From NCBI GenBank assembly GCA_000004985.1, contig GG738850.1: a stretch of DNA of 64,000 nt, one strand, 5' to 3'. The notes under the pieces were generated by a model, which saw nothing but the letters and a program-made list of their open reading frames with translations, had not been told where the DNA came from and searched no databases. Positions 6,313 to 63,277 of this stretch are shown here, one piece after another. Every line of letters starts with the position of its first letter. Position 1 is the stretch's first letter. Both the position numbers and the translations under genes were made by a program. This DNA comes from Naegleria gruberi. Lineage: Eukaryota.

Positions 6313-6330
6313 TAATTTATTGAAAAACAA

Positions 6331-7481
6331 TTAGAAAATGAATGAAATAATCAAACTAATCAAAATAGCCAACATTCCAACGTTATTCGAAACAACTTGA
6401 TATGAAACTCCAGCACTTGTAGAATTAAATGCAGTAAAAGTAGCAAATCCATATGAATCTCCAAACAATGAAACAGAACATCCCTTACAACTATTACCAT
6501 TCAAACTCATCCAATTTCTATATTGAATAGCATCTCCAATAATAGCATGAACTGATTGATCCAAAACTCCTTGATAAGATGAAGCAGCACTTGAGAATTG
6601 AACATAGGTAGCTTTTGGAAGATAGGTTTTAACGTAGGTTGAGTAAACAGTTCCTTCATAGGCACCAACAATCATATCAGGTGAATTGAATTGATTAATG
6701 TCTGTAATGGAAATACTTTGATTTCTGAGTGATCTTAAGAAACCCTATTAATTTGATGAAATTGAAACGTATTGGAATTTTGATATGTGAATATTTGTGA
6801 AAAAAGTTATTGGAATTATAGTCATGAAATTTGTGTTAATAATGAATTGGTTTTTTTGGTGGAATGAACTTACATTGGATCCAGTACCATAATTACATTG
6901 GAAGTGAGCAACTGTAGTTCTTTCAGGAAGAGGTGTAGCCTACAAGTTTCGAATATAAATTTTCACACAATTTCCAATAGAAACTTACATTACTTGTAAT
7001 AATATCACATTCTCCATCATCAACCAACTTTCTCAATGTATTAAAATACCCCAAACTACTTGTATTATACTGAGTAAAAGAGGCAGCATAATTTGTTGAA
7101 TATTTTGCATTAATTTTCTTAATGATATATTGACCAACTGTTCTCTTGATGGTCAACCATGGATCTTGAGTACCTAATTCAAAGCATAATCTGATATTGC
7201 TTCTAGATGCGAAAGGATTGGTGGATGGCCAAACTGGTTTAGAGGTAGAACACTATATGATTCGAATAATTATATGAGAAATGATAATTAGAAAGTAGTA
7301 AACATACAATAGGAACTGGGAAAAGCATCAAGTTGGAATATGTTTGTTGGAAATCATTATCAGAAACAACTTCTTGCACTGCAGCATCAAAAGCTGCTGT
7401 CATTTGGCTGGTGATGACTTGTGCCTTCACGCCAACTGTCAAACACACAATAAACAATAACAGGATAACAATTTGTTTCAT
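6331..7481 (-). CDS. Secreted protein with an N-terminal signal peptide and a C-terminal hydrophobic GPI-anchor-like tail, in four exons. Family unknown.
   Basis: Exons on the minus strand are 7481..7308, 7252..6989, 6939..6874 and 6744..6331 (stop included). Introns are 55, 49 and 129 nt, all GTATGT/GTAAGT...AG and phase 0. The signal peptide is MKQIVILLLFIVCLTVGVKAQ and the C-terminal tail is ...VGMLAILISLIISFIF*. The exon model was built by hand from frame continuity across three separate ORFs. Confidence 0.55.
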
Positions 7482-16391: not shown

Positions 16392-17130
16392 ATGCCAACA
16401 AACGCTTATTTCACAATTGTTGCTAAAGATTGTCCGATTTATGAATTGGAAATTTCAACATCAAAGGTTGGTTATCTAATGATGATTGAATTTTATTATA
16501 ATCATTATGTTTTTTTAATTTATGTTCATTCCGATCATGTGATGATGATATTTTAAAATATTAATAATAATAATAATGATGAATATTTGGAATTAATTGT
16601 GATGATTTGATGATGAAAATATATTTTTGATGAATAATAATAATATGATTAATCCGCGAATATATATTTGTTTAATTGTTTATTAATTAATAATAATAAT
16701 AATAGAAAACCGATCAATCACAACTTAAACAATTTGTTTTACATGCTTCTCTTGATGCAGTTGAAGAATTACAATGGACAACTAATGCTTTATTCTTGAA
16801 ATCTGTTGATAGATTTAATGAATTTAACATTTATGGATTTGTTACTGGTGGAAGTAAGTATGAACATTAATAGAATTAATTTTTAAATATTATAATAATG
16901 ATAACAATTTAATTATTTATTCAATATTTCCTAAAATAGATATCAGATTTTTATTACTTTTTGAAAATGATAAAAAGAATGATGATCAAACAATTAAGAG
17001 TTTCTTTAGTGATGTTTTTGAATTGTATATTAAAATCCAAATGAATCCATTCTATGAATTGTATACTCCAATTACTTCACATGATTTTGATACAAGAGTT
17101 AAACAATTAGCAAATAAGTATATTTCGTAA
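16392..17130 (+). CDS. trappc2: Sedlin / TRAPP complex subunit 2 (TRAPPC2 or TRAPPC2L)
   Basis: Three exons: 16392..16466, 16706..16853 and 16940..17130. The introns are 239 nt (GTTGGT donor, very AT-rich with (TAA)n runs) and 86 nt (GTAAGT). The 137-aa product MPTNAYFTIVAKDCPIYELEISTSK / TDQSQLKQFVLHASLDAVEELQWTTNALFLKSVDRFNEFNIYGFVTGG / NIRFLLLFENDKKNDDQTIKSFFSDVFELYIKIQMNPFYELYTPITSHDFDTRVKQLANKYIS aligns along its length with human sedlin (NQFIAHAALD..., [27 protein letters not shown]...FDRKV). Confidence 0.7.
16560..16705 (+). repeat. AT-rich microsatellite cluster ((TAA)n / (ATA)n) inside intron 1 of the sedlin gene
   Basis: The runs taataataataataatga… and …taataataataatag flank the intron, which is about 85% A+T. 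Confidence 0.7.
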
Positions 17131-17227: not shown

Positions 17228-18490
17228 ATGTCAACATTTAAAAAGTACTCATCAGAAGATATTGCAACACTAACAATTGCTCGTAATATTGGTTCTTGCA
17301 AAGGATGGCATGTTACTAGCGAATTTTTATGTTTTGGAACTATGGAAAGTGAAGGATGTGTTTATGTGTAAGTTTTTCACACTCAATTGACTAGAAAGTG
17401 GTAATAAACAGATATCGAGTTGATAAATTAGATAATTTACAAGAAGCAGTTCACAGTATGGTAAAAAGTCCATTCAATAAGACCTTTCCAGTAACTGTTT
17501 TTTATTTACCAAAATTAGATTTAATATTTGTTGGATATGATAATGGATGCATTGTAATATTTGATGGAAAATCAAGAGAGAAAAAGTCAATTATTAGAGG
17601 TTGTCATCATATTAAAAAGATTCAAGTAATTTACAATAACAAATTGGATAAACATTTACTTGTTGCTGCTTGTAATCAAGGTGAAAAGAGTCATTTACTT
17701 TTTTGGAAGATTACAAAGAATTCAAATCATAATGTTGATTATTCTTCAACTGATTTGAAACAATTTGAGTTTAATTCACAAATTTCAGATTTATATACTA
17801 CTGATATCTTTATTGAATCAATTAATAAGGAAAATAGAGTTTTAATTTGTCCATTAATGGATGATTCATTTAAATTACTTTACAATTTATTTGAACATGA
17901 AATTGTTGAATTACATTTCAATAAGGATCATTTAAATATGAATGGTGGTATTAGTAGTATGTCATTCGATCAAGATAAGGAAGGAATCAATGATTTAGCA
18001 TTAAGTGGAATGTTAAATGGTAAATTCCAAGTTTACAATTTATCAAATGGTACTTTACAAAAAACAATTAAGGCTGAAAAACATAATAGTATTGAATGTA
18101 TTGCATTTGATGGTGCATTAATGAATGTTTGTATTGGTGGAAGTGAAGGAAATGTTTCAATTTACAATATTGAAAATCAAGAACCAATTCTTGTGAAATG
18201 CATTGAAAATTGTCATGATGGATTTATTACAGCAATTGCACAATGTGAAAATTTCTTTACAACAGGTTCACAAGATGGTACCATTAAAGTTCTAGATAAG
18301 GTAAGTTAAATACTCATTGTAAAGTGTTTCAAACAATACAAAGACAAATGGAACATTAATTGTAAACTTGGATCAAAAACATACAAGTTGCATCACTCAT
18401 TTGGAATTTATTGAAGAACATTTATTAATTTCATCAAGTGAAGATGGTACCATTAGAATGCACATTTTAAATATTGCCAAATTAGAATAA
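17228..18490 (+). CDS. WD40-repeat protein
   Basis: Exons are 17228..17367, 17412..18300 and 18344..18490. Introns are 44 nt (GTAAGT..ACAG) and 43 nt (GTAAGT..AAAG). A WD-like ...DGTIKVLDK crosses the second junction and the final blade is HLLISSSEDGTIRMHILN. The last exon and its stop at 18488-18490 are inferred; the unspliced alternative ends at ...LDKVS* at 18309. Confidence 0.5.
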
Positions 18491-18495
18491 AAAAA

Positions 18496-24039: not shown

Positions 24040-25012
24040 TTATTTTTCCACTAACTTCATCCATTCATGCAATTCCTTTTTTGTTGACATGTACAGTTCT
24101 GACAATCTTTTGATTTCGTCCTGTTGTGCTTTTCTTTCTTCCTCTCTTTCCATCATCAATTTAGTAATGAATTGATTTTTTGTGTGTAATAGTTTTTTAA
24201 GCTCTTCATAGCTGCAAATTGTAAGCAAAAATCATTCCAATAACTTACTTGTACTTGTAAAAAGTCAAATCTTTCATATCTCCTTGATCGTATTCTAATA
24301 AGGTTGTCATGTATGAGGGGTTGTCAATTGAGAGGCATAAATTCTTCTCAGATAAAAACATTGATTCTGTTATCAAATTCGAAATGTCTGAAAATGTTGA
24401 ATACTCTGCATTAGCCGGAATATCGTCTCTTCCTTGAGTTAATTCCAATCCAACCTTATTCGAGAAAATCTGTATCTGATTCAATTGATTTAGAACACTA
24501 CTTTCGTCCTGTTTTAAAACAAGCATTTTGTTTGACTCTTGAAGATTGAGATTGTTGATGAGTGTATCCATTTGAACTTTATACTCATTGCACAGCTTGT
24601 CTTTTGCCTTTCTAACCAGAGTCATTTTACTCTGTATTTTGTATAACTGTGACAGAAGAGATTGTTTGGTTGGAATTAATTTAGAGTTGATTAGGAATTG
24701 AAGTTCTGTAAGTTGTTTTTCATAAACATGATTATTAATATTTCTTGAGGCAATAAAGTTTAGCTTATGTAAATCATAATTTTGAGAGGTGGGTATTTGA
24801 TTTTCTTGAGTGGTCTCAACCTTCTTTGGTTCCTCAATTTTAGGCTCTTCCTCACTTGTTGATTTTCTTGATTTTTTAGATGAAGATGATCTCTTTTCCT
24901 TCTTTTCCTTTTTATCTTTCTTTTTCTTCTTGTCTTCCGATTCATCTGAAGATTTTGATGATTTGGACTTTTTGGAGGATGAGGAGGAACGAGACTTTTT
25001 CTCTGAAGGCAT
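24040..25012 (-). CDS. Coiled-coil protein with a Lys/Ser-rich N-terminus, in two exons
   Basis: Exons on the minus strand are 25012..24249 and 24211..24040, separated by a 37-nt intron (GTAAGTTATTGG...TTTGCAG). The junction is phase 2 (..FYKYK|N|YEELKKLL..). The N-terminus is MPSEKKSRSSSSSKKSKSSKSSDESEDKKKKKDKKEKKEK. Confidence 0.5.
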
Positions 25013-25099
25013 TTTTTTGTACTTTTTTTGGCGCCAAAAACATTTCCATTAAGAAAATTATAATGCTGTTCACGAGAAATGATTAATGATATTATTATG

Positions 25100-27341
25100 T
25101 TATGGATTCAGTAATTTACTGAAAAATCCATTGTACTTTTTCACAGCAACTTTTGCAGATTTTTCTCCTTGTTCAGCTAATTTTCTAATCTTTGATATGG
25201 CAGATTGAATTCCAGCATCTGCTGCCTTTTCATAGTAGTGACAAGCTTTGGCTAAATCACGTGGAACATAATTTCCCTCTTCATACATAATTCCAAGCCA
25301 TGCATTTGCATTGATATTGCCACCACTAGCACTCCTGGAAAAGTATTTGAATGCCAATTCTTTATCCACTTTAGTTCCAATGCCCATCAAATGAATTCTT
25401 CCCATATCACACATGGCTGTCATATTTCCATTAGATGCACTCTGTTCATACCAATATTTTGCAGAATCATCATTTTTTACAACACTTCCACAACCATTTT
25501 TAAAGAAATAGGCAACATGTAGTTGACTTTCATGAAATCCTAATTTTGCTGATTTCTGGAAATATTCAAAAGCTTTATCAACATCTTTCTTAACTCCAGT
25601 ACCATTTTCGTACATTAATCCTAATCTATTAAGAGCCCACGGAGTATTACTCTCCAAATAATATTCTGATAAAATTAATTACAATAGATTAATTTTCAAT
25701 AAACTTACTAATAGCATTTCTATAGTTTTGTTTCACACCATACCCATGTTCATGCATTGCTCCTAACAGAAAAGTGGCATTTGAATTGCTATTGTTTGTC
25801 ATTTCAAAATTGCAGCAGTCTAATAATCTCTTGAGATCCTTCTTGTCTGAATAATATTTCAACAAGTGAATGATATTTTGCATGGAATTGAAATCAAAGT
25901 TTCTATGTGTGGTGAAAATTTCAAACATTAATTGAAATGCTTCCTTATAGTTTTTACAATCCATGGCAAGAATAGCTTTTCTCTCACTTTCAGCAATAAA
26001 AGTTTCTGCTCTATCAGAGCTTTTCATTATTAATGGATTGGATAATATGCTTTCGTAGGAAGGTCTTGAGAGAGGATCCTTTGCCAACATTTTGAGCAAT
26101 AGGTCAATAATGGAGCTATCACATTTTGCTAATTTCAACGAGTTTTCAATTTCTTCCATGGAAATGTTAGCACATCTAGAACGTAAATCAAAGGTTAACA
26201 ACTGATAAACAGATACTCCAATTGCAAAGATATCACTCTTAATAGAATAGGGAAGAACCCTCTCATTAGACGAAAGTATTTCAGGTGCTAGGTATTGTTC
26301 CGTTCCAGCCAAACTCAAAGAAGTTAAACTATCTGATATAACAGTACTTCCACCAAAATCCGCAAGTACAATTTCAATCCGATTTCCAATAGGATCAAAC
26401 TTTCTTAGTAGGATATTCAAAGGTTTAATATCTCGATGCACAATTATTCCTCTTTTCTGTTGATTGAAATAATGTAAAGCAGCACACAACTGATAAATAC
26501 ATTGGAATATCATTTCATTGGAAAGAGGTATCTTTTTTTCAATAATGGCCTTTTTCATGCTTCCTAGCTCCATATATTCCATTACAATACAAAATACATC
26601 AAATAATGTAAACATTTCATAAACTTTGATCGAATAATTGTGACTGAACACTATTGTCTTGGTTCCTTCATTAAAATCCATCGTCCCCTCAATACAAGTA
26701 ACTGGAACAACTTTGATTGCTACAATTTTAGAGTCCAACTTTCGAGTTGCTTTAAAAACTTTTCCAAAAGCACCTTCTCCAATTATACTCATCTCTGAAT
26801 ATTGATTCAATAGTACTGAGAGAATTTCACTAGCTCTAGTACTCTTCAAACCCACGATAAGTTCATCATAATTCGAATCAATTGAAGTAGAAACAACAGG
26901 TGCTTCATCATGATGACTTGATTGATTCGTACTATTTTCAGTAGTATTATTATTCGAAAGACTATTTTCCCTACTATCGGTTGATGTACTACTACCACTA
27001 TTACTACTAACAGTACTTTTAGTACTTGTAATACTGCTATTGTTAGTAGAAGTATTGGAAGTGTTACTATTAATTTTCTTTTCATTACTTTCGAATACTA
27101 CTTCAACAATCAGTGGATGATCTAGTTGAGTACTAAATGTCTTCATCATGTTTCTTACATCTGTATCATTTCTGAGTGTAATTAATAAATTTGCCGTTGG
27201 ATGTTTATATTTCAAAAAGAAGTGAATTTCATTTGATGATGAGAGAAGATCTAGCACTTGACTTGTTATGAATTCCAATGTTGAACATTCGTCCAGAAAG
27301 AGGAGAATATTATGAGATAAACACTGAACAATACATTGCAT
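25100..27341 (-). CDS. Ser/Thr protein kinase with C-terminal Sel1-like (TPR-like) repeats
   Basis: Exons on the minus strand are 27341..25709 and 25665..25100, with a 43-nt GTAAGT..CAG intron. Kinase motifs are GEGAFGKVFKA, VAIKVV, HRDIKPLNILL, DFG and APE. The Sel1-like repeats are GYGVKQNYRNAISKFI.., NRLGLMYENGTGVKKDVDKAFEYFQKSAKLG and WLGIMYEEGNYVPRDLAKACHYYEKAADAG. Confidence 0.65.
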
Positions 27342-27919
27342 TGTTTAATATTTTTTCAATTATTATTAAAAACAACAAATCTCCTTTTCACAACAGTTTT
27401 CAACAGTTCAAAAATCTTCACGTCAAACAAAATTCTTTTAAAAAATGTCTTCAAATTGGTATAGAGCTTCACCTTTCGGAAAGTGTCTGCTCATATTGAC
27501 TTGTTCATGTTTTGTGGGGTGTTGTGCTGACAGAGACACTGACATTGAAGAGTACGAACAAGATGGCAATAGTAGATTCCATAAATTTCATTCCACTGTG
27601 TAATTGGATATTTATTTTTTTGCAATGTTTGTTGTGATTCTTTTAATTGGATTTTGATGTTGTGCAAAATGTTGTAGCCTTAGTATACTAGTAATCCATC
27701 TCATGTTACCTGTACATTCATTGTAAACTATTTAAATATTAAATATAATATTCCAGAAATTCAACCCTTAAGAGAAACTAATCACAGATTAAACAGTTTC
27801 ATTTTCTTTTGAAAAAATATGTAAAAAGTTCTAGTTACTAACTTTCTCTGAAAGAACTGTCTGTTTGTCTGTTTATCTCATAAACAATTTGGAAGTTCAA
27901 ACTTTAATTTATCAAAAAA

Positions 27920-28755
27920 ATGTTAGCACAAGACAATGATATAAAGAACAAAGTTAGAAGATTTGTTAGAAAGTATCACATCAAACAACCTCTTCAAAAA
28001 CGAATCTTTGATAAGCACAAATTCGAACCATTAACAGAATCTCCCTTAATAGCATCTGAAGAAAATACAGAGTTTCTTTCCCATCAGAACTCTGCCTACT
28101 CGGGTTTATCCCAATACCAAATACACAAAACTGCAGAATTGAAAAAAGGTCCTTGTGGAGTTGGACTAGCAAACTTTCAATTCTAGTTGAAATGGAAAGT
28201 TTAGGAGATGATGCTTACTTTACCTTTGATTCCACCACGCATTCAATGATAGGAATTGCAGATGGAGTTGGAGGTTGGAATAGGAATGGTTCCACAGGTA
28301 TTGCAGCACTAGTTAGCAATAGAATAATGTCGGAATGCTTAAAATGTTGTGAGAATGGGGAACGTGATCCTAGAAATGTAATGAAACAATCATTTGAGAA
28401 TATTGTGAAAGATAACTTGAGTAAAGGTAGTTCAACAGTTTGCATTGCATCCATTGATAAGATGGCTAACAAGCTCAGTGTTTGTAATTTTGGAGATTCT
28501 CAATATGATATCATTCTATTATTTACAGATGGAGTGTGTGATAATCTCTTTCAATCTGAAATTCTTGAAATTTGTACTGGACTTGATACATCCTATGAAA
28601 TTGCTTGTTCAATTGTGAAAAAATCAAAAGAAAAAACGAGAACACCATCCACTGACTTTGCAGAAATCTATCCCACACCATTTTCAAAAAGCAGAAATTT
28701 GAAATATACTGCAAAACCAGATGATATCACTTGTGTATGTCAAATAATTGAATAA
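27920..28755 (+). CDS. PP2C-type phosphatase, PTC7/PPTC7-like
   Basis: Two ORFs in different frames. They are joined by a putative 56-nt intron at 28149..28204 with a weak GTCCTT donor and a TTTAG acceptor, giving ..ELKK|G|DDAYFTFDSTTHSMIGIADGVGGW.., which matches human PPTC7 LKKGMCYGDDACFVA...GVADGVGGW. Later motifs are TDGVCDNL and KPDDITCV. A frameshift at this site is the alternative. Confidence 0.5.
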
Positions 28756-28854
28756 CTCAATAAAACCTTAAAACAACAATCCGATATATGGATAACATCA
28801 ATTATCAAATATCTGAATCAGTTGTTTAGATATTTTAAATATTATTTAAAAAAA

Positions 28855-30445
28855 ATGTTTAGAGAACAAGAAGAGGAGGAAATTTATCAACATCAACGAA
28901 ATAATCTTGGTCGACATGGAAACAATGAAGATGATGGTACTCTGACAGAGTATCATCATCGTGATAAATCTTCATCAATTCTACAATTCCTGAGGAATAA
29001 CAAGATTTATATTGCAATCTTTATTGTAGCCTTTATTATTTGTATTGGATTATTAATTGGATTAATTGTTTATAATATTGTTAGTAAACCAAATATTGTA
29101 GATCATGTTTCGGATAGGAGAGTCTTGATGATCTCTATTGATGGATTCCGACCTGATTATTTGGACATGTTTAAGGATGATTGTAAGAATTTAACTCGTG
29201 TATTTATGGATGGTGTTAGAGCCAAGACAATGAAACCAATATTTCCATCAAAAACATTTCCAAATCACTATACGATTGTTACTGGACTTTATGCTGAATC
29301 TCATGGAATAGTTTCAAATTCGTAAGTTTGTTAAATTGATTATTCAACCTGGAAAATGTTAGTTTTTATGATCCAAATTTCAATGCCAAGTTTAGTATGG
29401 GATCTGATGAATCCATCAAATCTAGATGGTGGTTAGGAGAACCTATTTGGGTAACTGCTGAAAAACAAGGAATGGTTGCAGGAAGTTTCTTCTGGCCTGG
29501 CTCAGATGTGGAAATTCAAGGAAGATATCCAACCTATTACAAGAAATATGATGGAGATGTTGATTATGAGACAAGAGTCAAAACTGTATTTGAATGGTTA
29601 GATTCAGATAAACCACCACAAATTGTATTGACCTATTTCAGTGCTGTGGATACTGCAGGTCACAAGTAAGTTTTATTTTTCATGTTTACAATATGGATAC
29701 AAATATAATAATAATTAAATAACTATAGATATGGACCTATTTATTCTGAAGAATTGAGGGCAGCTGTAAAAGAAGTGGATAATTCTATAGGACTTGTTCT
29801 TTCACAATTGGAAAAGAGAAATTTGACTGATAAAGTAGATTTGATTATTGTGAGTGATCATGGTATGGCTTACACTCCAGAATCAAAGATTGTGAGAATG
29901 ACAGATATATTAGGAAGAAATGTTTTGGTTGGAGATGAAATTTTCAGTATGAATGATGGTCCATTCTTTGATTTGTATATTAAGGACAAATCTAAAGTTG
30001 AACCCCTATTTAATGAATTAGCGAATTCAATTCAAAATAATAGTACCTTCTCAACTGCCATTCAAGGTGTTTATTTGAAGAATAATATGCCAGATAGATT
30101 CCATTTTGTAAATTCTGACAGAATTCCAGATATTACCATACTTGCCAAACCTGAATACTCGATTTTAAGATATTCTACTAGTACCTTGTACGGTAAGTGC
30201 TAATAATTTAGTATTATTGATCTTAATGCGATTTAAAAGGAAATGGAAATCATGGATGGGATAATGAATCAGATTTAATGGGTAGCTTATTTATTGCCAG
30301 AGGAAAGCACTTTAAACAAGGGTTTACATCTGAGGAATCTGTTAGAAATTTGGATGTTTATTCATTACTTTGTAAATTATTGAATTTAACACCAGCTCCA
30401 AATAACGGTACTGCTGATAATTTTTCGTCCTTCTTGAAACTCTAA
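28855..30445 (+). CDS. Ectonucleotide pyrophosphatase/phosphodiesterase (ENPP, type I phosphodiesterase) family protein, a type II membrane protein
   Basis: Four exons: 28855..29321, 29363..29665, 29729..30192 and 30240..30445. Introns are 41, 63 and 47 nt with GTAAGT donors. Conserved blocks are [74 protein letters not shown] and TLYGGNHGWDN. The N-terminal TM is IYIAIFIVAFIICIGLLIGLIVY. Confidence 0.7.
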
Positions 30446-30498
30446 GCATTGATTTCAAATGAATGAAAAATGATTATTAATCAATTGACTACTTCAAT

Positions 30499-31508
30499 TT
30501 ATTTCTTATTGGTGAGATGTATAGTGGAATCTTTATACTGTCTCATGAATTTCAATCCATAAACACACGTAAAAACGAAAAATGTGATAATCCCTAGATA
30601 AACACAGCCAAGATGAAGAATGGTATAATCAATATAGGGCACGTTTGTGGAAAGCATTACACTACTTGGAAATCCATTGATTGGATCTGCATTGGGATTT
30701 GTATAATCGTGTTGAGAGACAAATTTACCACGTCCTCCATATTTTCTATGCTTAATTCTATGTCTCAAACTCCAAACATCAATACATGGTGGTATAATTA
30801 ATAAAATGGGTTGTAATAACCAACGGATTAAACTGAAATCCCCCAATGTGACCAACCATTTAGTGAGCTCAATTTTATGTCCACAATAAGCACCATAGAT
30901 TATAAATTCTTGTTCATCATCTTCATCAGGTCTGAAAACAATGGAATCACCCTCAAAAGTTTGATTCTCAATCCTTCCCCAACAAATTCTTTGATCCAAC
31001 TTGTAAAGGTAAAAGTAGTGCATGAGTCCAAGTGCTTTCCATAAGCCAAGTGATGTAATATCTAAATAGGTGTTCCAAATACAAGGTAAGATCATTTCGA
31101 GGTTTCCATCCCACTTTTTATCTGTATGAGTAAGATCTAGATATCTACCTCCAACCCTTGTACCTCTCATCTCATTTCTTACAATAGTGAAAACAAAAAA
31201 CGGTTTCAAGAAGAATGTTACATCAATAAGCCAAACTAATGTTGGAAAGAATCCATGAATAATATTGAATATCTTATTTTCTATTTGGAGAAGCTGAGAA
31301 GAATCATCGTTCGTATAATCAGATGTATTATCATCTTGGTCCACATGTGATAATAAACCAATATTACTTTCATTGATAGATTGATTATGAGAAGTTGTAA
31401 AACTAAATCTGCCACCAAAGTCAACCTTCTTTACAACCACCAAATATACCTTCATAGCAATAGTAATAATAACAGAAATACAAATGGGTACAATTAATAA
31501 AACAAACA
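30499..31508 (-). CDS. Hypothetical multi-pass membrane protein
   Basis: ORF 30499..31530 on the minus strand. The first ATG is at 31508-31506 (MAPLFVLLIVPICISVIITIAM...). It has several hydrophobic helices. Family not recognised. Confidence 0.4.
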
Positions 31509-31865
31509 ATGGAGCCATTTTTTTTATCAATGCTCCTGTCGAATGGAATTCTCATGTCAATATTTATTTGTTCCATTGAAAATTCATTAACTACACGTGT
31601 AAAAAACACTGCAAAACCATTTAAAAATTATTTGTAAATTTCAAATTTTCATGTCTGCTGCTTGTCCAAGGAAATTGAGATGTTTCAATCATATAGGAAT
31701 TAAGCGAAATATAGACCCAGCGTGAGAACTCTAGAATACACAATATAACATTCGAATAATAGATCAATGACACAAGCAATCTGTCTCAACACTACTTCCG
31801 TCTTTTTAGAGAAAAAGTCGTTTTTTGAGGTTTCCACAGTGAAAGAGAGATTAACTTTCAAAAAA

Positions 31866-34800
31866 ATGCCATCAGTCAAACACATCAGATTTTATCTTCC
31901 TTTGGTATTAGTTTTCTTTCTTTTCGTAACCAGTATCAACTTCAAATAATCTCTTTACCAGAAGTCTTTCTAATATTTCTTTTACTCAACCGGTTACAGA
32001 CCCTTCACCTCTCGGATGTCAAATTGTTCCACAACCAAATTTTCTCTCACTACAAGTGGCATCAATTTTCATATCTTCTATTCGTGGTAATGATTATTTA
32101 ACACAATCATTGAATAATTCATCATCATTAATTAGTAATAAGTGTAATTTCATCAATAATCCATGTCACTCAATTTCACATGCCTTGTCTCAGTTGAGTA
32201 ACACAACATGTGTAATTAATCCTTGTACTGGATATGTATTATTTTTATTGGATGATTTATTGGATGATGAAGCAAAGAGTTGTAATTTGGAAATTCCAAC
32301 TTCAATTCCAATCATGTTTTATGGAGTTGGTTCAAGTAAAAATTGGAAGTGTGTTTCGAATAGCATATTTAAAGAAGGAAATAATGTATTGTATCAGGGA
32401 TTCTTTATCTCAAATGTGAAAATTAGTGGAAATTTCAATTTACGAGTTTGTTTATTGTATTTTGTAAATTCAATTGCATTTAATTTTAGATTTTCCAACA
32501 AGTATTTCTTGTAAGTTTCGTTTTTTATTTCTTTTAAAATATAATTGGAATAGTACAATATTTTTTCACACTTCACAACTATTAGAAAGTGTAATTGAAG
32601 AAACAAGTCAAGACATAACTTATTGGAATATAATGAGATATAGTTCTTTATCATTTCTTAGTTCTACAGTTAACAAAACTAAAATTAAGTCCTATGCTAA
32701 AGTTAGTTTTTCCTCATCTAATGTCACTAGCACTGAAAGCACGACAATACTAGCAACGAGCATGTTTCTCGATTCCTATGTAATTCCATTTGCTTTAGTT
32801 TTTGACTCGTTATTGGAAAGCTCAAGCTTTACGTTTGAGTGGAAAACTGCATCATGTATTACATATGACAAACAACCACAATTTGGATTTTTTAATTCAA
32901 AGCTCATTAATTCAAAGATTTTTTCATTCAATTTTGGAAGATTAGTTTTGGATAATAATTTATTTACAGGTACGAGTCAAATTCTATTAAGAAACAGTAT
33001 TCCTTGTGACAAGGCAATAGATGTCACAAGAAATGTATTTGAAAGTCTTCCTGACCTTTCTACATTATTAATACAGGATACGATTGCAATTTTGCTATTT
33101 TCTGGAAATTCAATTAGAAATTTTAATGTAGCTTTTGGATTATTTCATTTTAATACCTTAGCAGTGGTTAAATTTGAAAATAATATTGTTACTGGAATGA
33201 TTATGCCACAAATTGCTCTAACAAATTCTGGACTATTTACATTCGAAAAAATTAACAATATTGCTACTTTTAATAATACTTTTATTGGTAATGTAGGATA
33301 TTATGGATCGTACTATTTTAAAGAATGTGGAAATATTTTGATTATGAATGACAAGTTTTCAAATAATAAGGCAATTATTGGAGGAGCTATTTATGATTCC
33401 AATAATGGTTTTGGTAGATCGGTCAATGTTACAAATTCAATATTTTCCAACAATTATGCAAGTTATGGAGGTGTTATTGGAACAAGTTTAGTGAATGTAA
33501 ATCTCTATTTCACTGGAAATACATTCGAAAATAATAGAGCCAAGTGGGGAGGAGCTATTTTAGCTGATATACCACCTTATTTTATGGATGGAATGTTACA
33601 ATCTAATCAATTTGTAAATAATACTATTGAATTTCAATCAGAAGAAAATAATATTGCTGGTAATCCTATATTTACTCTACTTTCACCTAATGGTACTCTA
33701 TTCTTATATCCAGGAGAATTGATTAATATAGAAGGAAGAGTAACAGACCTCTATGACAAGGTAATACCTTATAATTCAGATTTTAAAATTGATATTACTG
33801 CATCACAACCAAATGTAATGATATATAGTAGTGTGATTGCAAATCAGTTGACTAGTAAATCATTTAATATTTATTGGAAATATGGATTAGTAGGAGCTGA
33901 AACTGTTAATGCATTCTCTCAGTTTAATTTAACAATTTCAACTCGAATTCTGGATAAATCAACTTTTGGAAGAGTTATTGTAATGGTTAAGGAATGTCCA
34001 TCTGGATTCTCATTCATGAATGGTTATTTACTTGGAAATACCAATTCAAATCTATTCGAATGTTCACCCATTCCTCTAATTATGTCTCTGTCTATAGTTG
34101 GATCTTCCTTATTATTTGGATTCATTACTGTAGGAGTTCTGTGGTTGTGTATTAAAATCTATACCTCTATAAAACCATATAGAACAGCCAAGCAACAAAC
34201 CATGATGGTTCTTTCCATGCAAAAACCTCAAAATGAAATAGCAAAGAAAGTGAAAATATTCGATCAAGAATTGGAAACTAAATTAAGCAGATTATTAATG
34301 AATGCAGAAAATTATACTGTTTTGAAAAGTAATGATATGGTGGAAGTTGTTTCATTCACTTCTAATTGGGAGAAATATGTTTTAAAGATTGACAAATCTC
34401 AGAGAAGAGAAGTTCGATTGAATGAGGAATATTCTGCAGTACCGTAAGTAGTTGTTATTTTGATTTAACCTTTGATTTTGAAAGAGTTGAATTGGTTGAT
34501 ACGAATGAGGCAAAACAATTTATTGCGAATGCAGAGTATTACTTTGTTATTCCTGGTGATAATAATGAGAAAACAAGATTTTTGGGAATTGATATCAAAA
34601 ACAGATCTGTTTTTCATCCTTGTTTGATATTTAGAGGTGCAGATTTTGATCTATCTCACTATTTGTCTGTTTTTGGTCATTTTAGTAAGAGAATTGAAGA
34701 AAAAATTGATATTTTACAACAAATTGTAAGTAATATTTCTCAACCAATTGATTACTAACGTCTCGTAGGTAAAACCAATGAAATGGCTTCATTCCAATAA

Positions 34801-35464
34801 CATATTCCATCGCGATTTGAAACCTGCAAATATTTTTGTTTGGTGGGATGTTGGAAAGAAGCCAATTTTAAAAATTGGTGATTTTGGAGCTAGTAGCAGT
34901 AATTATGTTTTAGAAGGAACATATCCATATATAGCTCCTGAACTAATTAATGAAAATGATTTGAATGAATTAAGCATTTATCATTCTCGTATGGAGTGGT
35001 TTGCTCCTGCAGATGTTTATTCATTCTCAGTCATAATGTGGGACGTATTATTTGAGGACAATTCAAGATTTATCAGACATTTCAGAATGAAAAAGTATTC
35101 CAATGATGATTTCTCCATTAACATGCCAACATTGGAGATGTTACTAGAATATTGTGAAAAGGAAAATAGATTTGAACTCAACCCAAAGATAGAATTAGCC
35201 AAACAATTGGAAAATTATTTGGAAATATTCAAGAGATGTAACAGTGAGGATCCAACAAAAAGACCAACGTTTGAATTTATTGAAAAGGCATTGAATGGAG
35301 AGGTAGAGAATTGGAATTCCTATCCAACCTATTCTAGAATTAAGGAATCAATAGATGTTGACTCGTCCCATTATTATCATCGTGACAATGGTTCGAACTC
35401 TAATTTTGTTAAAATTGGATCAGATAATGAGGAGTTAATTGAAACTGAGTATACCAGATATTAA
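31866..35464 (+). CDS. Receptor-like protein kinase: a signal peptide, a large ectodomain of right-handed beta-helix (PbH1-like, GGAI-repeat) units, one TM helix and an atypical cytoplasmic kinase domain
   Basis: Five exons: 31866..31932, 32000..32510, 32554..34443, 34485..34725 and 34769..35464. Introns are 67, 43, 41 and 43 nt; the last contains TACTAAC at 34754-34760. The signal peptide is MPSVKHIRFYLPLVLVFFLFVT. Ectodomain repeats include NNKAIIGGAIYDSNNGFG, SIFSNNYASYGGVIGTS and NTFENNRAKWGGAIL. The TM is IMSLSIVGSSLLFGFITVGVLWLCIKIY. The kinase C-lobe has HSNNIFHRDLKPANIF, KIGDFGAS and YIAPE, but no obvious Gly-rich loop. The exon 1 donor (GTATCA) is non-consensus and uncertain. Confidence 0.6.
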
Positions 35465-35610
35465 GCTTATAAAATGTCTGACTTGATCTGTGAAGTTCCT
35501 TCAAATTATTATAAACGTGAGAATTAGCCTTAAATACAAGGGTATTTTCATGCTCAATAAGGTGGCCCACGCATATTAAGTTTAAGGGTTATTGAAAATT
35601 ATTGAATGTA

Positions 35611-35683
35611 GCCCGTCTAGCTCAGTCGGTAGAGCGCAAGGCTCTTAACCTTGTGGTCGTGGGTTCGACCCCCACGGTGGGCG
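35611..35683 (+). tRNA. tRNA-Lys (anticodon CTT)
   Basis: The 73-nt sequence GCCCGTCTAGCTCAGTCGGTAGAGCGCAAGGCTCTTAACCTTGTGGTCGTGGGTTCGACCCCCACGGTGGGCG folds as a cloverleaf with a 7-bp acceptor stem (two G-U pairs). The D-loop is AGTCGGTA, the anticodon loop is CTCTTAA and the T-arm is GTGGGTTCGACCCCCAC. It is nearly identical to eukaryotic cytosolic tRNA-Lys(CUU). No encoded CCA and no intron. Confidence 0.85.
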
Positions 35684-35684
35684 A

Positions 35685-35699
35685 TTTCGTTTTGTTTTG
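35685..35699 (+). terminator. Probable RNA polymerase III terminator (T-runs) downstream of tRNA-Lys
   Basis: TTTCGTTTTGTTTTG follows the tRNA 3' end directly, with two T4 runs. Confidence 0.4.
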
Positions 35700-35846: not shown

Positions 35847-37174
35847 ATGAAACGACGAGCAAGTAGGAATAATCTGCAAGACAATAAAAAAGTGGAGACT
35901 CCTAAAAAGAGTACACCACCAGTAGTAGTGGATAATATTTCGGATCAGGCTTTATCAGAGTCAAGTATAAAAGCAATACAAAAATTAGCTGGACAATTAG
36001 CGAGCGGGAAGAAACTTTTATTTGTGACTGGAGCAGGTATTTCGCAAATATCAGGTAAATATTTATTATAATTGATGGATACGAACTGTTTTGGAATTTT
36101 ATATTGGATATAAATTATTTTGAAATTAATTTAGGAATTCCAACATATAGAGGAGATGCCAATTCAATTTGGTCGAATCATATTCTTGATATGGGTACTA
36201 GGAAAATGTTTCAAAGGGATGAATTACATTGGTACAATTCATTTTGGTTGACAACCCATCACAAGAGAGAATATTTTGTTGCCAAACCAAATGAAGGACA
36301 TTTAGCTATTGCGAGATTGAGTAAATTATGTAATTTGAGATGTATTACACAGAATATTGATCATTTACATTCAAAAACATCTCTATCACCATCCCATATA
36401 ATAGAGGTTCATGGTAGATTAGGTCTTTATAAGTGTATTAATTCTAGAAAAAAGAATCCTTGTCCATATGCCAAAACACATAGTATTGATACAGTACAAT
36501 TGGAAAAGCATAGTAATGATTATCATCAAAATAAGCCCACTTTTACCATCAAATCAGTACCAAAATGTCCCTTCTGTAAAACTCTTCTCCTTCCACAAGC
36601 CCTCTTATTTGATGAGAAATATGAATCACATGATTTTTATCAATGGAGAAAAGCACTGCAATGGATTGCTGATTGTGAAGTCATTTGTTTTGTAGGAACA
36701 TCATTTTCTGTAGGTGTTACAGCTGAATGCTTGTCAATTGCCAAGGACAATGACAAAACCCTCTACAATTTTAATATTAGGGTAGATAAGGAGGTTAAAA
36801 ATCTTCCAGGAATGTATCATATTGTAGGAAAATCTGAAATTTCACTTCCATTCTTATTTAATACATTGGTGGAAATTGGGAAGAGTCAACATTTATCTCA
36901 CAAGCCACGAATGCACTTTTATTCGAGCCAATATTCAAGTACACACAAAGTGGTGAAAAGAACTAATCTGAAAAGACTACAAAGAAACAGTAAAGTCATT
37001 CACAGTGATGATGAGCAACAGCAGCCTGTTGAAGAGCATGAATATGATAGTGACCATGAGAGAATCTCTAAAAAGATCAAATTCAAGGAGTACTCTTCCA
37101 GTGATGATGGTGCTAGTTCTAGTGAGGAAGGAGAAACTGAGGAAGAATTTGACGATTCCGATGAGGATTATTAA
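35847..37174 (+). CDS. Sir2-family NAD-dependent protein deacetylase (sirtuin) with an acidic Ser/Asp/Glu-rich C-terminal tail
   Basis: Two exons, 35847..36054 and 36135..37174, with an 80-nt intron (GTAAAT..TTTAG) in phase 1. The Rossmann motif GAGISQISG|IPTYRG spans the junction. Other motifs are QNIDHLH, HG and a zinc-binding CxxC..CPFC. The tail is ...SSDDGASSSEEGETEEEFDDSDEDY. Confidence 0.7.
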
Positions 37175-44948: not shown

Positions 44949-46742
44949 TTACTTCTTCTCAAAGGAAATCAGTAATGGTTCTCTTGGTCTCAAAGTTACA
45001 TGATTATCGAGATGTAATTTGTAATTTGGTGATATTGAAAATTTGTAATGTTTAACTAAAAGTGCTAAACAGAAACAACTTTCAATCTCTGCAAAATATC
45101 TTCCCTGACAAATACGATTTCCAATTCCAAAACCAGAGAATGCAAATGGATTTTGATGAATTTCAATATGTGGATTGAAAATTGAGAGTGGAATTGTTTG
45201 AGATTTGAATTCTTCAATTGTAATACTTTGAGCAATAGTTGAATCTTTCCTTTTAAGGAATCTTTCTGGAATGAATTCATTAGGTTGAGGCCAATATCTT
45301 TCATCTTTGTGAATATCTAACCATGAAGCAGCTATTTGAGTTCCTTTTGGAATTGTAATATCTTTCCATTTAAATGTTTTTGTTACTTGTCGAGCAGCAA
45401 ATGCCACAACTGGATATAATCTTAAACTTTCTTTAACAACTGCTCTCAAATAATCCATTCTTCCCTCTTGATAATCTTCAAAATCAAATGTTTCCTTTCC
45501 ATATAAAGTTGGATAATCATGATCAATGAATTTATGAATTCGATCTTGAGCATCCTTATCAGTAGCTAATGAATATAATATAAATCCTAATGTTCTTGCA
45601 GTTGCTATTTAATAATTAATGTTTTTAAAGATGAATATTCATTGTAAACTTACTTTCATGTCCAGCAACAAGGAAAATGAAACAATTTGAAATAATTTCC
45701 TCATCAGTCATACTTTCATCTTTACTCCAATTTTCTCTTGCATTTAATAAGAGAGATAGAATATCAGAGTGAGGAGTTTCTTCTTCTTGATTTTTAGTTT
45801 TACGTTCATTAATAATATCATTAATGGATTTAGTGAATTGATTGGAAATTAATTGAGCTGGTTTATGTGGAAATATTCCAACATGTTGTCTAATCCATTT
45901 AGGAAATATATTGTAAACTGGAAGAATTCCAAATAATTTCTGAGTTTGAACAGTTAAACTATCTTTTTGATTAATATTAAAAGAATTGAAATCATAATTA
46001 AATCCAGCCAATCCAATAACCTCTACAAATATTTTACAATAATACATTACAATATTATATCATTCAATATTATATATCAATATTAAACATCAATATATTC
46101 CAATTAATACTAACCTAAAGTAAGATTTGAAAAATCCACTTCAATATTTCTCATTAAAAGATTCTTTTCAATATTTGGTATTAAAAATCTATTCATACAA
46201 TCAATTGTAACTTTTGCAACAATTTTCAATGATTGAGGAGCAAAAGCAGGATCCAATAATTTTCTCTGACGATGCCAAAATTCATAATCATTTTCAACAA
46301 ATATATTTGATCCACCAAATAGTTCAATAACACTTTCTTTCAAATCAGGTAATTTGTTTGTAATCTTTCTAGTTGCCATTTCTTTTAGAAATAATGAATC
46401 ACCAATTACAATCATTCCAGTACTAACAATTCCCAATACAACTTTATACATTTTATCATTTCCACTCTCTTTCATAAATCTTTCAAATATTAGAGGTGAT
46501 AAATTCTCTCCAAATCTTGTTCCCCACTCTGATGGTATTAAAAACTTTGGTAGAAATTGACATAGAATAGGTGGTATGAATTGACATCGTCCAATTTTAA
46601 TAAATTCATACTCTTTACATATTATTAAATATTTACAATATAAATAAAGCAGAAATAGTATTATTAATATTAAAAAACATGTCAATGATAAATAAATAAT
46701 ATCTAACAAGGCGGAGGAGGTGGATGATAGTAATGTACTCAT
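44949..46742 (-). CDS. Cytochrome P450 monooxygenase
   Basis: Three exons on the minus strand: 46742..46115, 46022..45654 and 45604..44949. Introns are 92 nt (GTTAGT donor) and 49 nt (GTAAGT). The N-terminal membrane anchor is LLDIIYLSLTCFLILIILFLLYLY. The I-helix AGHE|TT is split by intron 2. The K-helix is ESLRLYPVV, and the heme loop is FAFSGFGIGNRICQGRYFAE. Confidence 0.7.
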
Positions 46743-63058: not shown

Positions 63059-63277
63059 TATTTTAAATATTTTTAATATTTTAAATAAAATAATTGGAAA
63101 ATAATTTATTAAAATTTTATATTAGCTAAAGCATATTATAATATATCTAAAGCAATAATAGTAATATTAATATTATTATTAATATTATTAATATGTATAA
63201 TAGCTGTACCATCAAGTATTGGATTTTCAATATTAATGACAATTAAAAAATAATTAAAAAAAATAATTAAAAAATAT

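What the first reader, a model, noticed from the sequence alone, without database searches (positions are those of the whole stretch)
24212..34768. Very small, tightly sized spliceosomal introns across the locus
Fourteen of the introns I reconstructed are under 60 nt. Their sizes are 37, 41, 41, 43, 43, 43, 43, 44, 45, 45, 46, 47, 49 and 55 nt. Nearly all have GTAAGT or GTATGT donors and (Y)AG acceptors, and one has a perfect TACTAAC branch site at 34754-34760. The remaining introns I modelled are 56-129 nt, plus one of 177 nt (CHP-like gene) and one of 239 nt (sedlin). A 37-nt intron (24212-24248) is near the lower limit for canonical spliceosomes. Together with intergenic spacers under 100 nt, this points to strong selection for compaction in this genome.
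Basis: seen in the sequence. Interest (0 to 1): 0.5.

Follow-up and report, generated by a model that had tools for sequence, protein, structure and literature searches.

The report
Short introns in Naegleria gruberi genes
The window is a gene-dense piece of the published Naegleria gruberi genome, and the tiny 37-59 nt segments are ordinary GT-AG spliceosomal introns, several already in the public annotation, so the finding is correct but not new.

Summary
I rebuilt 30 introns in the window. Sixteen are under 60 nt: 37, 41, 41, 43 (four), 44, 45, 45, 46, 47, 49, 49, 55 and 59. All sixteen start with GTAAGT or GTATGT.

The window comes from Naegleria gruberi NEG-M. My spliced ENPP model (introns of 41, 63 and 47 nt) is residue-for-residue identical to XP_002681364.1. 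My sedlin model (introns of 239 and 86 nt) is identical to XP_002681360.1.

The other short introns rest on three kinds of support: gap-free homolog alignments, Pfam domains that run unbroken across the junctions, and orthologous introns in N. lovaniensis.

The 37-nt intron is real but is missing from the public model NAEGRDRAFT_63320. That model stops at the TAA inside GTAAGT and loses 56 residues. N. lovaniensis conserves those residues after a 178-nt intron at the same codon.

37 nt is far above the known minimum of 16-17 nt. No TACTAAC-type branch consensus exists. 3n depletion cannot be judged here. Selection for compaction is not shown: orthologous N. lovaniensis introns are about 2-5 times longer, and the more compact N. 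fowleri genomes have mean introns of 126-144 bp.

Verdict: a known organism and a known kind of feature. Low interest.

The parts
24212..24248 (-). 37-nt intron (GTAAGT...CAG, phase 2) in the coiled-coil gene NAEGRDRAFT_63320 (CDS 25012..24040). It is not spliced in the public model.
   Evidence: The public protein XP_002681497.1 (255 aa) ends ...FYKYK at the TAA inside GTAAGT. Splicing adds a 56-codon exon. N. lovaniensis conserves that exon at 76% amino-acid identity after a 178-nt GTAAGT...TAG intron at the same codon and phase.
25666..25708 (-). 43-nt intron (GTAAGT...CAG, phase 1) in the kinase + Sel1-repeat gene (CDS 27341..25100).
   Evidence: Splicing gives ...GYGVKQNYRNAI|KYYLESN, which restores the Sel1 pattern A-x-x-Y-[YF] seen in the four following repeats. 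Retention gives a stop after 7 codons. Pfam finds Pkinase plus 5 Sel1 stretches. There is no independent ortholog check.
29322..29362 (+). 41-nt intron 1 of the ENPP gene NAEGRDRAFT_63323.
   Evidence: The spliced protein is identical to XP_002681364.1. The alignment is gap-free across the junction. The same site holds a 41-nt intron in Logan contig L001 and a 126-nt intron in N. lovaniensis.
29666..29728 (+). 63-nt intron 2 of the ENPP gene.
   Evidence: Exact match to the public protein. The junction restores the GHxYGP motif. L001 has no intron here and reads straight through. N. lovaniensis has a 123-nt intron at the same site.
30193..30239 (+). 47-nt intron 3 of the ENPP gene (AAG acceptor).
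   Evidence: Exact match to the public protein. Both L001 and N. lovaniensis lack this intron, and their continuous ORFs are exactly 47 nt shorter across this stretch.
31933..31999 (+). Uncertain 67-nt intron (GTATCA...CAG) joining the signal-peptide exon to the body of the transmembrane kinase gene (CDS 31866..35466).
   Evidence: This is the only GT-AG pair that joins the two frames (my reading; model). The donor is weak. No independent support.
32511..32553 (+). 43-nt intron (GTAAGTTTC...ATAG, phase 2) in the transmembrane kinase gene.
   Evidence: It joins ORFs of 195 and 660 codons; retention gives a stop. Sequence evidence only. A representative search with the downstream exon found only remote Pmp-like repeats.
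34444..34484 (+). 41-nt intron (GTAAGT...AAAG, phase 2) in the transmembrane kinase gene.
   Evidence: There is a stop (TAA) inside the donor. Splicing joins the 660-codon ORF to the kinase exon in frame. Sequence evidence only.
34726..34768 (+). 43-nt intron (GTAAGT...TACTAAC...TAG, phase 0) inside the kinase domain. The TACTAAC lies at 34753-34759.
   Evidence: The Pfam Pkinase match (fragment residues 120-314 to profile 85-256) runs across the junction ILQQI|VKPMKWLH..HRDLKP.
17368..17411 (+). 44-nt intron 1 of the WD40 gene (CDS 17228..18490).
   Evidence: ORF bridging with GTAAGTTTT...ACAG. The N. lovaniensis ortholog has a 149-nt GTAAGT intron at about the same place, but the phase does not match exactly in my alignment.
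18301..18343 (+). 43-nt intron 2 of the WD40 gene (AAG acceptor).
   Evidence: The downstream 48-codon exon encodes a further WD40 repeat (..SSSEDGTIRMH..), conserved at 77% in N. lovaniensis after a 112-149-nt intron. This replaces my earlier 156-nt model.
16467..16705 (+). 239-nt intron 1 of the sedlin (TRAPPC2) gene.
   Evidence: The spliced protein is identical to XP_002681360.1. The Sedlin_N match (residues 10-134 to profile 3-129) is continuous across the junction.
16854..16939 (+). 86-nt intron 2 of the sedlin gene.
   Evidence: Same evidence as intron 1.
45605..45653 (-). 49-nt intron in the cytochrome P450 gene (CDS 46742..44949).
   Evidence: A single Pfam p450 stretch (residues 104-531 to profile 40-444) spans the junction at residue 332.
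46023..46114 (-). 92-nt intron (GTTAGT donor) in the P450 gene.
   Evidence: The same p450 stretch spans the junction at residue 209.
7253..7307 (-). 55-nt intron (GTATGT...TAG) in the receptor-like membrane protein gene (CDS 7481..5554).
   Evidence: ORF bridging with strong splice signals. Sequence evidence only.
6940..6988 (-). 49-nt intron in the same gene.
   Evidence: ORF bridging. A weak SBP_bac_3 match (E = 0.16, below the curated threshold) runs without a gap across this junction and the next.
6745..6873 (-). 129-nt intron in the same gene.
   Evidence: Same evidence as the 49-nt intron.
6288..6356 (-). Uncertain 69-nt intron (GTTTGA donor) in the same gene.
   Evidence: ORF bridging only.
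58310..58354 (+). 45-nt intron in the RhoGAP gene (AAG acceptor).
   Evidence: The Pfam RhoGAP match (residues 33-180 to profile 1-144) spans the junctions at residues 74 and 120.
58493..58538 (+). 46-nt intron (GTATGT...TAG) in the RhoGAP gene.
   Evidence: Same RhoGAP match.
59580..59643 (+). 64-nt intron (GTTTGT...TAG) in the RhoGAP gene.
   Evidence: ORF bridging between 351 and 174 codons.
61545..61589 (-). 45-nt intron (GTATGT...TAG, 3n with an in-frame stop) in the cryptochrome/photolyase gene.
   Evidence: The Pfam DNA_photolyase match (residues 34-216 to profile 3-157) spans the junction at residue 202.
61032..61141 (-). 110-nt intron in the photolyase gene.
   Evidence: ORF bridging with strong signals. 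No Pfam stretch covers this junction.
50881..50939 (+). 59-nt intron (GTAAGT...AAAG) in the large gene that ends at 55505.
   Evidence: ORF bridging, best-scoring candidate.
51268..51336 (+). 69-nt intron (GTTTGT...ATAG) in the same gene.
   Evidence: ORF bridging between 114 and 1388 codons.
36055..36134 (+). Probable 80-nt intron (GTAAAT...TTAG) in the SIR2-family gene.
   Evidence: Best frame-compatible candidate. The N. lovaniensis ortholog also carries about 220 nt of intron.
63048..63125 (+). Probable 78-nt intron (GTATGT...TAG) at the end of the gene that starts near 62369.
   Evidence: ORF bridging. The acceptor is ambiguous: 78, 105 or 114 nt are all possible.
57143..57319 (+). 177-nt intron (GTATGT...CTAG) of the CHP-like EF-hand gene (ATG at 57072).
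Evidence: It joins MGVRNSRPDIPKLPMEMLEELAES to IDQFVNMAQVSNITALRYNPF in frame.
57412..57483 (+). 72-nt intron (GTACGT...ATAG) of the CHP-like gene.
   Evidence: Frame-compatible candidate.

Best explanation
The window is nuclear DNA of Naegleria gruberi strain NEG-M, from a 707,703-bp scaffold carrying genes NAEGRDRAFT_63320 to 63324 and their neighbours. The short segments are ordinary U2-type GT-AG spliceosomal introns. Their sizes cluster at the short end of this genome's intron-length range, with a mode near 43-45 nt.

How they most likely work:
- The 5' splice site is strongly constrained (GTAAGT or GTATGT, often followed by TT). It is complementary to the 5' end of U1 snRNA and carries most of the recognition information.
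- The intron body is very A+T-rich (18% G+C).
- The branch site is only loosely defined, an A in a YTNAY-like context 8-15 nt upstream of the acceptor.
- The 3' site is simply the first suitable TAG, CAG or AAG.
- With both ends 37-60 nt apart, the two sites are probably paired across the intron (intron definition).
- If left unspliced, every one of these introns puts a stop codon or a frameshift into the message, often the TAA inside GTAAGT itself.

Shown here: the organism's identity, the positions of the introns, restoration of conserved protein sequence, and conservation of several intron positions in relatives. Inferred: the recognition mechanism, branch-point use, and any degradation of unspliced transcripts.
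For: Organism and annotation:
- Spliced models are exactly identical to XP_002681364.1 (ENPP, introns of 41, 63 and 47 nt) and XP_002681360.1 (sedlin, introns of 239 and 86 nt).
- Two further exact matches: XP_002681363.1 and XP_002681499.1.
- Exon 1 of the coiled-coil gene is 100% identical to XP_002681497.1.

Junctions:
- The ENPP alignment with Naegleria, Willaertia, bacterial and sponge homologs has no gap at any of the three junctions.
- Pfam domains run unbroken across junctions in sedlin, P450, photolyase and RhoGAP and in the kinase domain.

Presence and absence in relatives:
- L001 lacks ENPP introns 2 and 3, and N. lovaniensis lacks intron 3. Their ORFs are exactly the intron lengths shorter.

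Orthologous introns at the same or nearly the same sites in N. lovaniensis:
- 37 vs 178 nt; 41 vs 126; 63 vs 123; 44 vs 149; 43 vs 112-149.

Statistics:
- 17 of 30 sense-strand GTA[AT]GT hexamers bridge ORFs, against 1 of 16 on the antisense strand.
- Donors are GTAAGT in 16 and GTATGT in 5 of the first 28 introns. Intron G+C is 18%.
Against: - No transcript data could be consulted, so no junction has been seen in RNA.
- Six short introns rest on sequence logic alone or on weak supplementary evidence: 25666-25708, 32511-32553, 34444-34484, 7253-7307, 6940-6988 and 50881-50939.
- Three further longer models are uncertain: 31933-31999, 6288-6356 and 63048-63125.
- Several of my full-length models are not found as exact sequences in the public protein collection (kinase-Sel1, P450, photolyase, RhoGAP, WD40). 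The public models therefore differ from mine somewhere, and I could not see where.
- The public model of NAEGRDRAFT_63320 does not splice the 37-nt segment.
Confidence: 0.9

Rival explanations
1. Some of the short segments, especially the 37-nt one, are not introns. Under this reading the gene simply ends at the stop codon, as in the public model, and the downstream ORF is a chance ORF or a separate feature.
For: The public model XP_002681497.1 ends at the TAA inside the putative donor. The spliced 311-aa protein is absent from the public collection. The N. lovaniensis annotation also lacks the C-terminal exon.
Against: The 56-codon downstream exon is conserved at 76% amino-acid identity in N. 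lovaniensis. It ends at an equivalent stop and is preceded there by a GTAAGT...TAG intron at the same codon and phase. A 57-codon open frame at 30% G+C has a chance of roughly 1% (my estimate from base composition).
Confidence: 0.04
2. The short intron size reflects strong selection for genome compaction.
For: The window is about 85-87% ORF. Convergent genes have stop codons 0-82 nt apart or overlapping. Half of the introns are under 60 nt.
Against: Introns at the same or nearly the same positions in N. lovaniensis are about 2-5 times longer. The smaller, more coding-dense N. fowleri genomes have mean introns of 126-144 bp, and N. gruberi as a whole is only 57.8% coding (PMC8296547). A tail of 110-239-nt introns persists in the same dense window. 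A deletion-biased mutation spectrum combined with a minimum-length constraint would give the same distribution without selection for compactness.
Confidence: 0.3
3. The segments are artefacts of sequencing or assembly, that is, frameshifting insertions rather than biological introns.
For: None specific. Most lengths are not multiples of three, as assembly indels would also be.
Against: All carry GT...AG ends with an extended donor consensus and an A+T-rich body. Five are in the curated public gene models. Several positions are shared with independent assemblies of other Naegleria.
Confidence: 0.01

Closest known systems
Published gene models of Naegleria gruberi NEG-M (genome paper of Fritz-Laylin et al. 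2010, cited in PMC3488318 and PMC6759080; RefSeq XP_0026813xx/XP_0026814xx)
   Same: Same DNA. The 41-, 63-, 47-, 239- and 86-nt introns are exactly those of XP_002681364.1 and XP_002681360.1. N. gruberi is described as comparatively intron-rich among excavates (PMC6142364).
   Different: The 37-nt intron is missing from NAEGRDRAFT_63320. Several other public models differ from mine in ways I could not see. The published mean intron length of 203 bp (PMC8296547) hides the mode near 43-45 nt seen in this window. I could not read the genome paper itself, so I do not know whether it reports the modal or median length.
'Minimal' short-intron classes of other compact eukaryotic genomes, such as fission yeast, many fungi and Caenorhabditis (modes around 45-60 nt; from my own knowledge, not checked here)
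   Same: Canonical GT-AG introns with a narrow peak just above a functional minimum and a long thin tail. The donor is strong and the branch site weak or variable. Recognition is presumably across the intron.
   Different: A different lineage (Heterolobosea). No polypyrimidine tract is evident, and 5 of 16 acceptors are AAG.
Ultra-short intron systems: mikrocytids at 16-17 nt (PMC10245619); Stentor, Paramecium and the chlorarachniophyte nucleomorph (the first and third are cited there; the lengths are from my own knowledge)
   Same: A narrow, lineage-specific intron-size distribution in a gene-dense genome.
   Different: Those introns are two to three times shorter and confined to a window of 1-10 nt. 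In Paramecium they show clear depletion of stopless 3n introns (my own knowledge). Here sizes range from 37 to 239 nt, and 3n depletion is not demonstrable.
Orthologous genes of Naegleria lovaniensis (GCA_003324165.2)
   Same: Introns at the same or nearly the same positions, with GTAAGT donors, in the ENPP, coiled-coil and WD40 genes.
   Different: Lengths there are 112-178 nt, against 37-63 nt here. One ENPP intron is absent in N. lovaniensis, and N. lovaniensis probably has one extra WD40 intron that N. gruberi lacks.

Membership tests
U2-type (major) GT-AG spliceosomal introns | GT at the 5' end and AG at the 3' end | tested here: met
   All 30 modelled introns have these ends.
U2-type (major) GT-AG spliceosomal introns | Extended 5' splice site complementary to U1 snRNA (GTAAGT / GTATGT) | tested here: met
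   GTAAGT in 16 and GTATGT in 5 of the first 28 introns, and in all 16 introns under 60 nt. Only one sense-strand GTAAGT is not an intron donor.
U2-type (major) GT-AG spliceosomal introns | Removal restores an uninterrupted, homologous protein | tested here: met
   Exact identity to public proteins covers 5 introns. Gap-free homolog alignment. Pfam domains are continuous across 9 junctions. Six short introns rest on ORF logic alone or on weak supplementary evidence.
U2-type (major) GT-AG spliceosomal introns | Branch-point adenosine in a recognisable motif upstream of the 3' site | tested here: inconclusive
   There is one perfect TACTAAC (34753-34759). Elsewhere only loose YTNAY matches occur at variable distance, and six of the 28 introns scanned have none.
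U2-type (major) GT-AG spliceosomal introns | Excision from pre-mRNA seen in transcripts | not testable with these tools
   No transcript-derived contig carrying these proteins is in the collections. RNA-seq exists under PRJEB23822 (PMC6142364).
U2-type (major) GT-AG spliceosomal introns | Intron position shared with orthologs | tested here: met
   Five positions are shared, exactly or approximately, with N. lovaniensis and one with contig L001.
U12-type (minor) introns | Conserved ATATCC / GTATCC donor and TCCTTAAC branch site | tested here: not met
   No modelled intron has this donor. The nearest is GTATCA at 31933, in an uncertain model with no TCCTTAAC.
Mini-intron genomes with translational surveillance (Paramecium type) | Depletion of 3n-length introns, especially those without in-frame stops | tested here: inconclusive
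   2 of 16 short introns and 7 of the first 28 are 3n. The one-sided binomial p is about 0.06 for the short class by my calculation. Introns were found by ORF interruption, so stopless 3n introns would have been missed.
Mini-intron genomes with translational surveillance (Paramecium type) | Nearly all introns within one very narrow size class below about 35 nt | tested here: not met
   Sizes run from 37 to 239 nt with a median of 57 nt. Only about half lie between 41 and 49 nt.

The most novel reading that the evidence does not exclude
Introns in the N. gruberi lineage may have been systematically miniaturised to a mode near 43 nt relative to the N. lovaniensis/N. fowleri clade. Introns at the same or nearly the same positions are about 2-5 times longer there, even though those genomes are smaller and more coding-dense. 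As a side effect, the shortest introns may be under-called in the 2010 annotation, producing truncated proteins such as NAEGRDRAFT_63320. If this holds genome-wide, Naegleria would offer a within-genus contrast that separates intron-size evolution from genome compaction.
Probability: 0.4. Interest if true: 0.3.

Novelty: already known. Interest (0 to 1): 0.12.

Why it matters
It matters little as a discovery. The genome and most of these introns have been public since 2010, and introns of 40-60 nt are common in compact eukaryotic genomes.

Two practical points are worth keeping:
1. At least one public gene model, NAEGRDRAFT_63320 / XP_002681497.1, is truncated by 56 residues because a 37-nt intron was not called. 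Re-annotation with a lower minimum intron length and RNA-seq support would probably repair others.
2. Five intron pairs at the same or nearly the same positions show N. gruberi introns much shorter than N. lovaniensis ones. This argues against reading short introns as a simple sign of genome compaction in this genus.

Tried and rejected
- **Exact contig look-ups.** Look-ups for the 339-aa membrane protein and for two N. gruberi proteins found nothing. The N. gruberi assembly is not in that position index, so I could not see the public exon structures directly.
- **Chimeric protein query.** I built a query of one 55-aa piece from each of 35 ORFs to pull out every public N. gruberi protein of the window at once.
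- **Search with the spliced transmembrane kinase.** Searching with its largest exon found only remote Pmp-like repeat proteins and nothing above 50% identity, so it could not test the 43- and 41-nt junctions.
- **A 38-nt 'intron' at 28149-28186 (donor GTCCTT) in the PP2C-like gene.** Rejected. The public model XP_002681363.1 starts at the downstream ATG (MESLGDD...), and the spliced 265-aa version is not public.
- **My first 156-nt model for 18301-18456.** The '156-nt intron' contains a conserved WD40 exon, and the downstream F-box ORF is a separate gene.
- **Apparent excess of TACTAAC on the plus strand** (11 observed, 2.8 expected). Not intron-related. Only the copy at 34753 is in an intron on the right strand, and two copies are the antisense of GTTAGTA donors.
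- **Literature searches for a published median or mode of N. gruberi intron length.** They gave only the mean of 203 bp. The genome paper itself is not held.


Full report
**What is in the sequence.** The window is A+T-rich (30% G+C) and packed with long ORFs on both strands. Many ORFs on the same strand are separated by short A+T-rich segments that begin with GTAAGT or GTATGT and end with AG. Segment 24212-24248 on the minus strand reads GTAAGTTATTGGAATGATTTTTGCTTACAATTTGCAG, 37 nt. Segment 34726-34768 on the plus strand is 43 nt.

**Where the window comes from.** I first spliced the ENPP-like gene at 28855-30447 by eye, giving introns 29322-29362, 29666-29728 and 30193-30239. A search with this protein found Naegleria proteins as the best named hits. 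A later search with the coiled-coil gene at 24040-25012 gave a 100% match to a 'predicted protein [Naegleria gruberi]'. Exact-sequence look-ups then settled the identity:
- My 479-aa ENPP model is identical to XP_002681364.1 (NAEGRDRAFT_63323).
- My 137-aa sedlin model is identical to XP_002681360.1, labelled strain NEG-M. Both lie on a 707,703-bp scaffold.
- The 187-aa PP2C-like protein is identical to XP_002681363.1, and the 339-aa membrane protein to XP_002681499.1.

So the window is N. gruberi NEG-M. Five of the introns (41, 63, 47, 239 and 86 nt) are already in the public annotation.

**Inventory of introns.** I reconstructed 30 introns (see the parts list). The sizes are 37, 41, 41, 43, 43, 43, 43, 44, 45, 45, 46, 47, 49, 49, 55, 59, 63, 64, 67, 69, 69, 72, 78, 80, 86, 92, 110, 129, 177 and 239 nt. 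The median is 57 nt, and fourteen introns fall between 41 and 49 nt. All sixteen introns under 60 nt start with GTAAGT (13) or GTATGT (3). Their acceptors are TAG (8), CAG (3) and AAG (5), so the '(Y)AG' statement is only two-thirds true. The intron sequence is 18% G+C.

**Is it more than chance?** Yes. On the strand I assigned as coding, 17 of 30 GTA[AT]GT hexamers meet three conditions. Each lies at the end of an ORF of at least 50 codons. That ORF would terminate within 45 nt if read through. Each is followed within 30-250 nt by an AG that opens an ORF of at least 40 codons in a compatible frame. On the antisense strand only 1 of 16 hexamers does so. Only one sense-strand GTAAGT, at 7578 upstream of a start codon, is not the donor of a modelled intron.

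**Independent support for individual junctions.**
1. **ENPP.** The spliced protein aligns without a gap at all three junctions with homologs from N. gruberi (a paralog), N. lovaniensis, Willaertia, a bacterium and a sponge. The alignment restores the motifs HGIVSNSFYDP, GHKYGP and GNHGWDN.
   - A Logan contig from a closer, unidentified relative (L001; 78% nucleotide identity in the best-aligned block) has a 41-nt intron at site 1 and reads straight through sites 2 and 3.
   - N. lovaniensis (L002) has introns of 126 and 123 nt at sites 1 and 2 and none at site 3.
   - In each case the length difference equals the intron I removed.
2. **Pfam domains that run as single stretches across junctions.**
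   - Sedlin_N: both sedlin introns.
   - p450: the 92- and 49-nt introns.
   - DNA_photolyase: the 45-nt intron.
   - RhoGAP: the 45- and 46-nt introns.
   - Pkinase: the 43-nt intron at 34726.
3. **The 43-nt intron at 25666.** Splicing restores the Sel1 repeat pattern (...NAI|KYYLES), matching the four following repeats.
4. **The 43-nt intron at 18301.** It is followed by a 48-codon exon encoding another WD40 repeat. N. lovaniensis conserves this exon at 77%. This overturned my first 156-nt model and showed that the F-box ORF downstream is a separate gene.
5. **Weaker cases.** The junctions at 32511, 34444, 7253, 6940 and 50881 have sequence support only. A sub-threshold SBP_bac_3 match covers 6940 and 6745.

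**The 37-nt intron.** The public model XP_002681497.1 (NAEGRDRAFT_63320, 255 aa) ends ...FYKYK, at the TAA contained in the GTAAGT at 24248-24243. Splicing 24212-24248 adds 56 residues (...YKYN|YEELKKLLHTKNQF...HEWMKLVEK). In the syntenic N. lovaniensis locus (L003) the same exon is present at 76% identity (SYEELKKLLHMKNQ...HEWMKMVEK). It ends at a stop, and a 178-nt GTAAGT...ATAATAG intron precedes it at the same codon and phase. The intron is therefore real, and the public models in both species are truncated. No RNA evidence could be consulted.

**How the introns most likely work.** The features are those of canonical U2-type introns recognised across the intron:
- a highly constrained donor, GTAAGT(T);
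- an A+T-rich body;
- a weakly defined branch region;
- a minimal acceptor.

In the 37-nt and 43-nt examples the best branch candidates (CTTAC and TACTAAC) place the A 10 nt from the 3' end. Other introns have loose YTNAY matches 8-15 nt upstream, and several have no match. This part is inference. Every intron introduces a stop or a frameshift if retained, which follows from how the introns were found.

The claim that 37 nt is near the lower limit for spliceosomes is wrong in general. Mikrocytid introns are all 16-17 nt and are described as the shortest extreme known (PMC10245619).

The compaction argument is weaker than it looks. The window is indeed dense, about 85-87% ORF by a rough upper estimate. 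The nine convergent gene pairs have stops 0-82 nt apart or overlapping by 4 nt. Three observations point the other way:
- Introns at the same or nearly the same positions in N. lovaniensis are about 2-5 times longer.
- The published N. fowleri genomes are smaller and more coding-dense than N. gruberi, yet have mean introns of 126-144 bp.
- N. gruberi as a whole is only 57.8% coding, with a published mean intron length of 203 bp (PMC8296547).

Within this genus, then, short introns do not track compact genomes. Deletion bias acting against a minimum-length constraint would fit the data equally well.

On 3n depletion, 2 of 16 short introns are 3n. This is suggestive at best and is confounded by how the introns were ascertained.

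**Comparison with what is known, and verdict.** These are members of the ordinary major-class intron family in an already sequenced and annotated organism. The size class resembles the minimal introns of many fungi, nematodes and protists, and is far from the ultra-short systems. I could not read the N. gruberi genome paper, so I cannot say whether the mode near 43-45 nt is stated there. The public models contain such introns in any case.

The finding is correct, well observed, and not new. The by-products are a corrected gene model and a small within-genus contrast in intron length.

Noticed in passing
window 24040-25012 (-), intron 24212-24248: The public model NAEGRDRAFT_63320 / XP_002681497.1 (255 aa) is truncated at the TAA inside the donor of an unannotated 37-nt intron. 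The corrected protein is 311 aa. The N. lovaniensis ortholog model (C9374_001984, 200 aa) is also truncated, and its locus shows an extra frame change near L003:10668.
   Followed up: yes
window 3953/3956, 8567/8629, 12753/12778, 19413/19410, 24039/24040, 30447/30499, 41656/41707, 55505/55537, 60170/60253: All nine convergent gene pairs have stop codons only 0-82 nt apart, and one pair overlaps by 4 nt. Their 3' UTRs must therefore be extremely short or must overlap on opposite strands.
   Followed up: partly
window 18488-18498: The WD40 gene ends at 18490 and the next gene on the same strand, an F-box protein, has its ATG at 18496. That leaves 5 nt between the stop and the next start. The promoter or 5' UTR of the F-box gene must lie inside the WD40 gene, or the two are co-transcribed.
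   Followed up: no
window ~24900-35900 compared with L003: The N. lovaniensis locus L003 is syntenic with window 44100-35950 and 24865-10331. It lacks the intervening ~11 kb, which carries the Sel1-repeat kinase, a 52-codon Cys-rich ORF, the PP2C-like gene, ENPP, a membrane protein and the Pmp-repeat transmembrane kinase. The ENPP ortholog sits on a different N. lovaniensis scaffold (L002). This indicates an insertion or rearrangement between the two species.
   Followed up: partly
window 32555-34441 (+): The 629-residue exon of the transmembrane kinase carries Chlamydia Pmp-like GGAI repeats in its extracellular part. It has no relative above about 45% identity among 1.84 billion representative proteins. 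Either this gene is absent from the public N. gruberi protein set, or a fragment represents it there.
   Followed up: partly
window 28191-28755 (+): The PP2C/PTC7-like protein (XP_002681363.1, 187 aa) goes directly from the GDS motif to the TDG motif. It lacks the roughly 45 residues usually found between them, and it hits no Pfam family at E<=0.001. It may be a degenerate phosphatase or pseudo-phosphatase.
   Followed up: no
L003:17776-17892 compared with window 17412-18300: The N. lovaniensis WD40 ortholog appears to have an extra intron of about 95 nt near residue 300-308, where N. gruberi has an uninterrupted exon. Conversely, ENPP intron 3 is present only in N. gruberi. Intron presence therefore differs in both directions within the genus.
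   Followed up: partly
window 38756-41656 (+): A 966-residue protein with long homopolymer and low-complexity runs (poly-T, poly-Q, poly-N, poly-S) is conserved in synteny with an N. lovaniensis gene that carries a weak Intu_longin_2 hit.
   Followed up: no
window 7485-7578 (-): The only sense-strand GTAAGT not used by a modelled coding intron lies upstream of the start codon at 7481. It may mark a 5'-UTR intron of about 94 nt.
   Followed up: no
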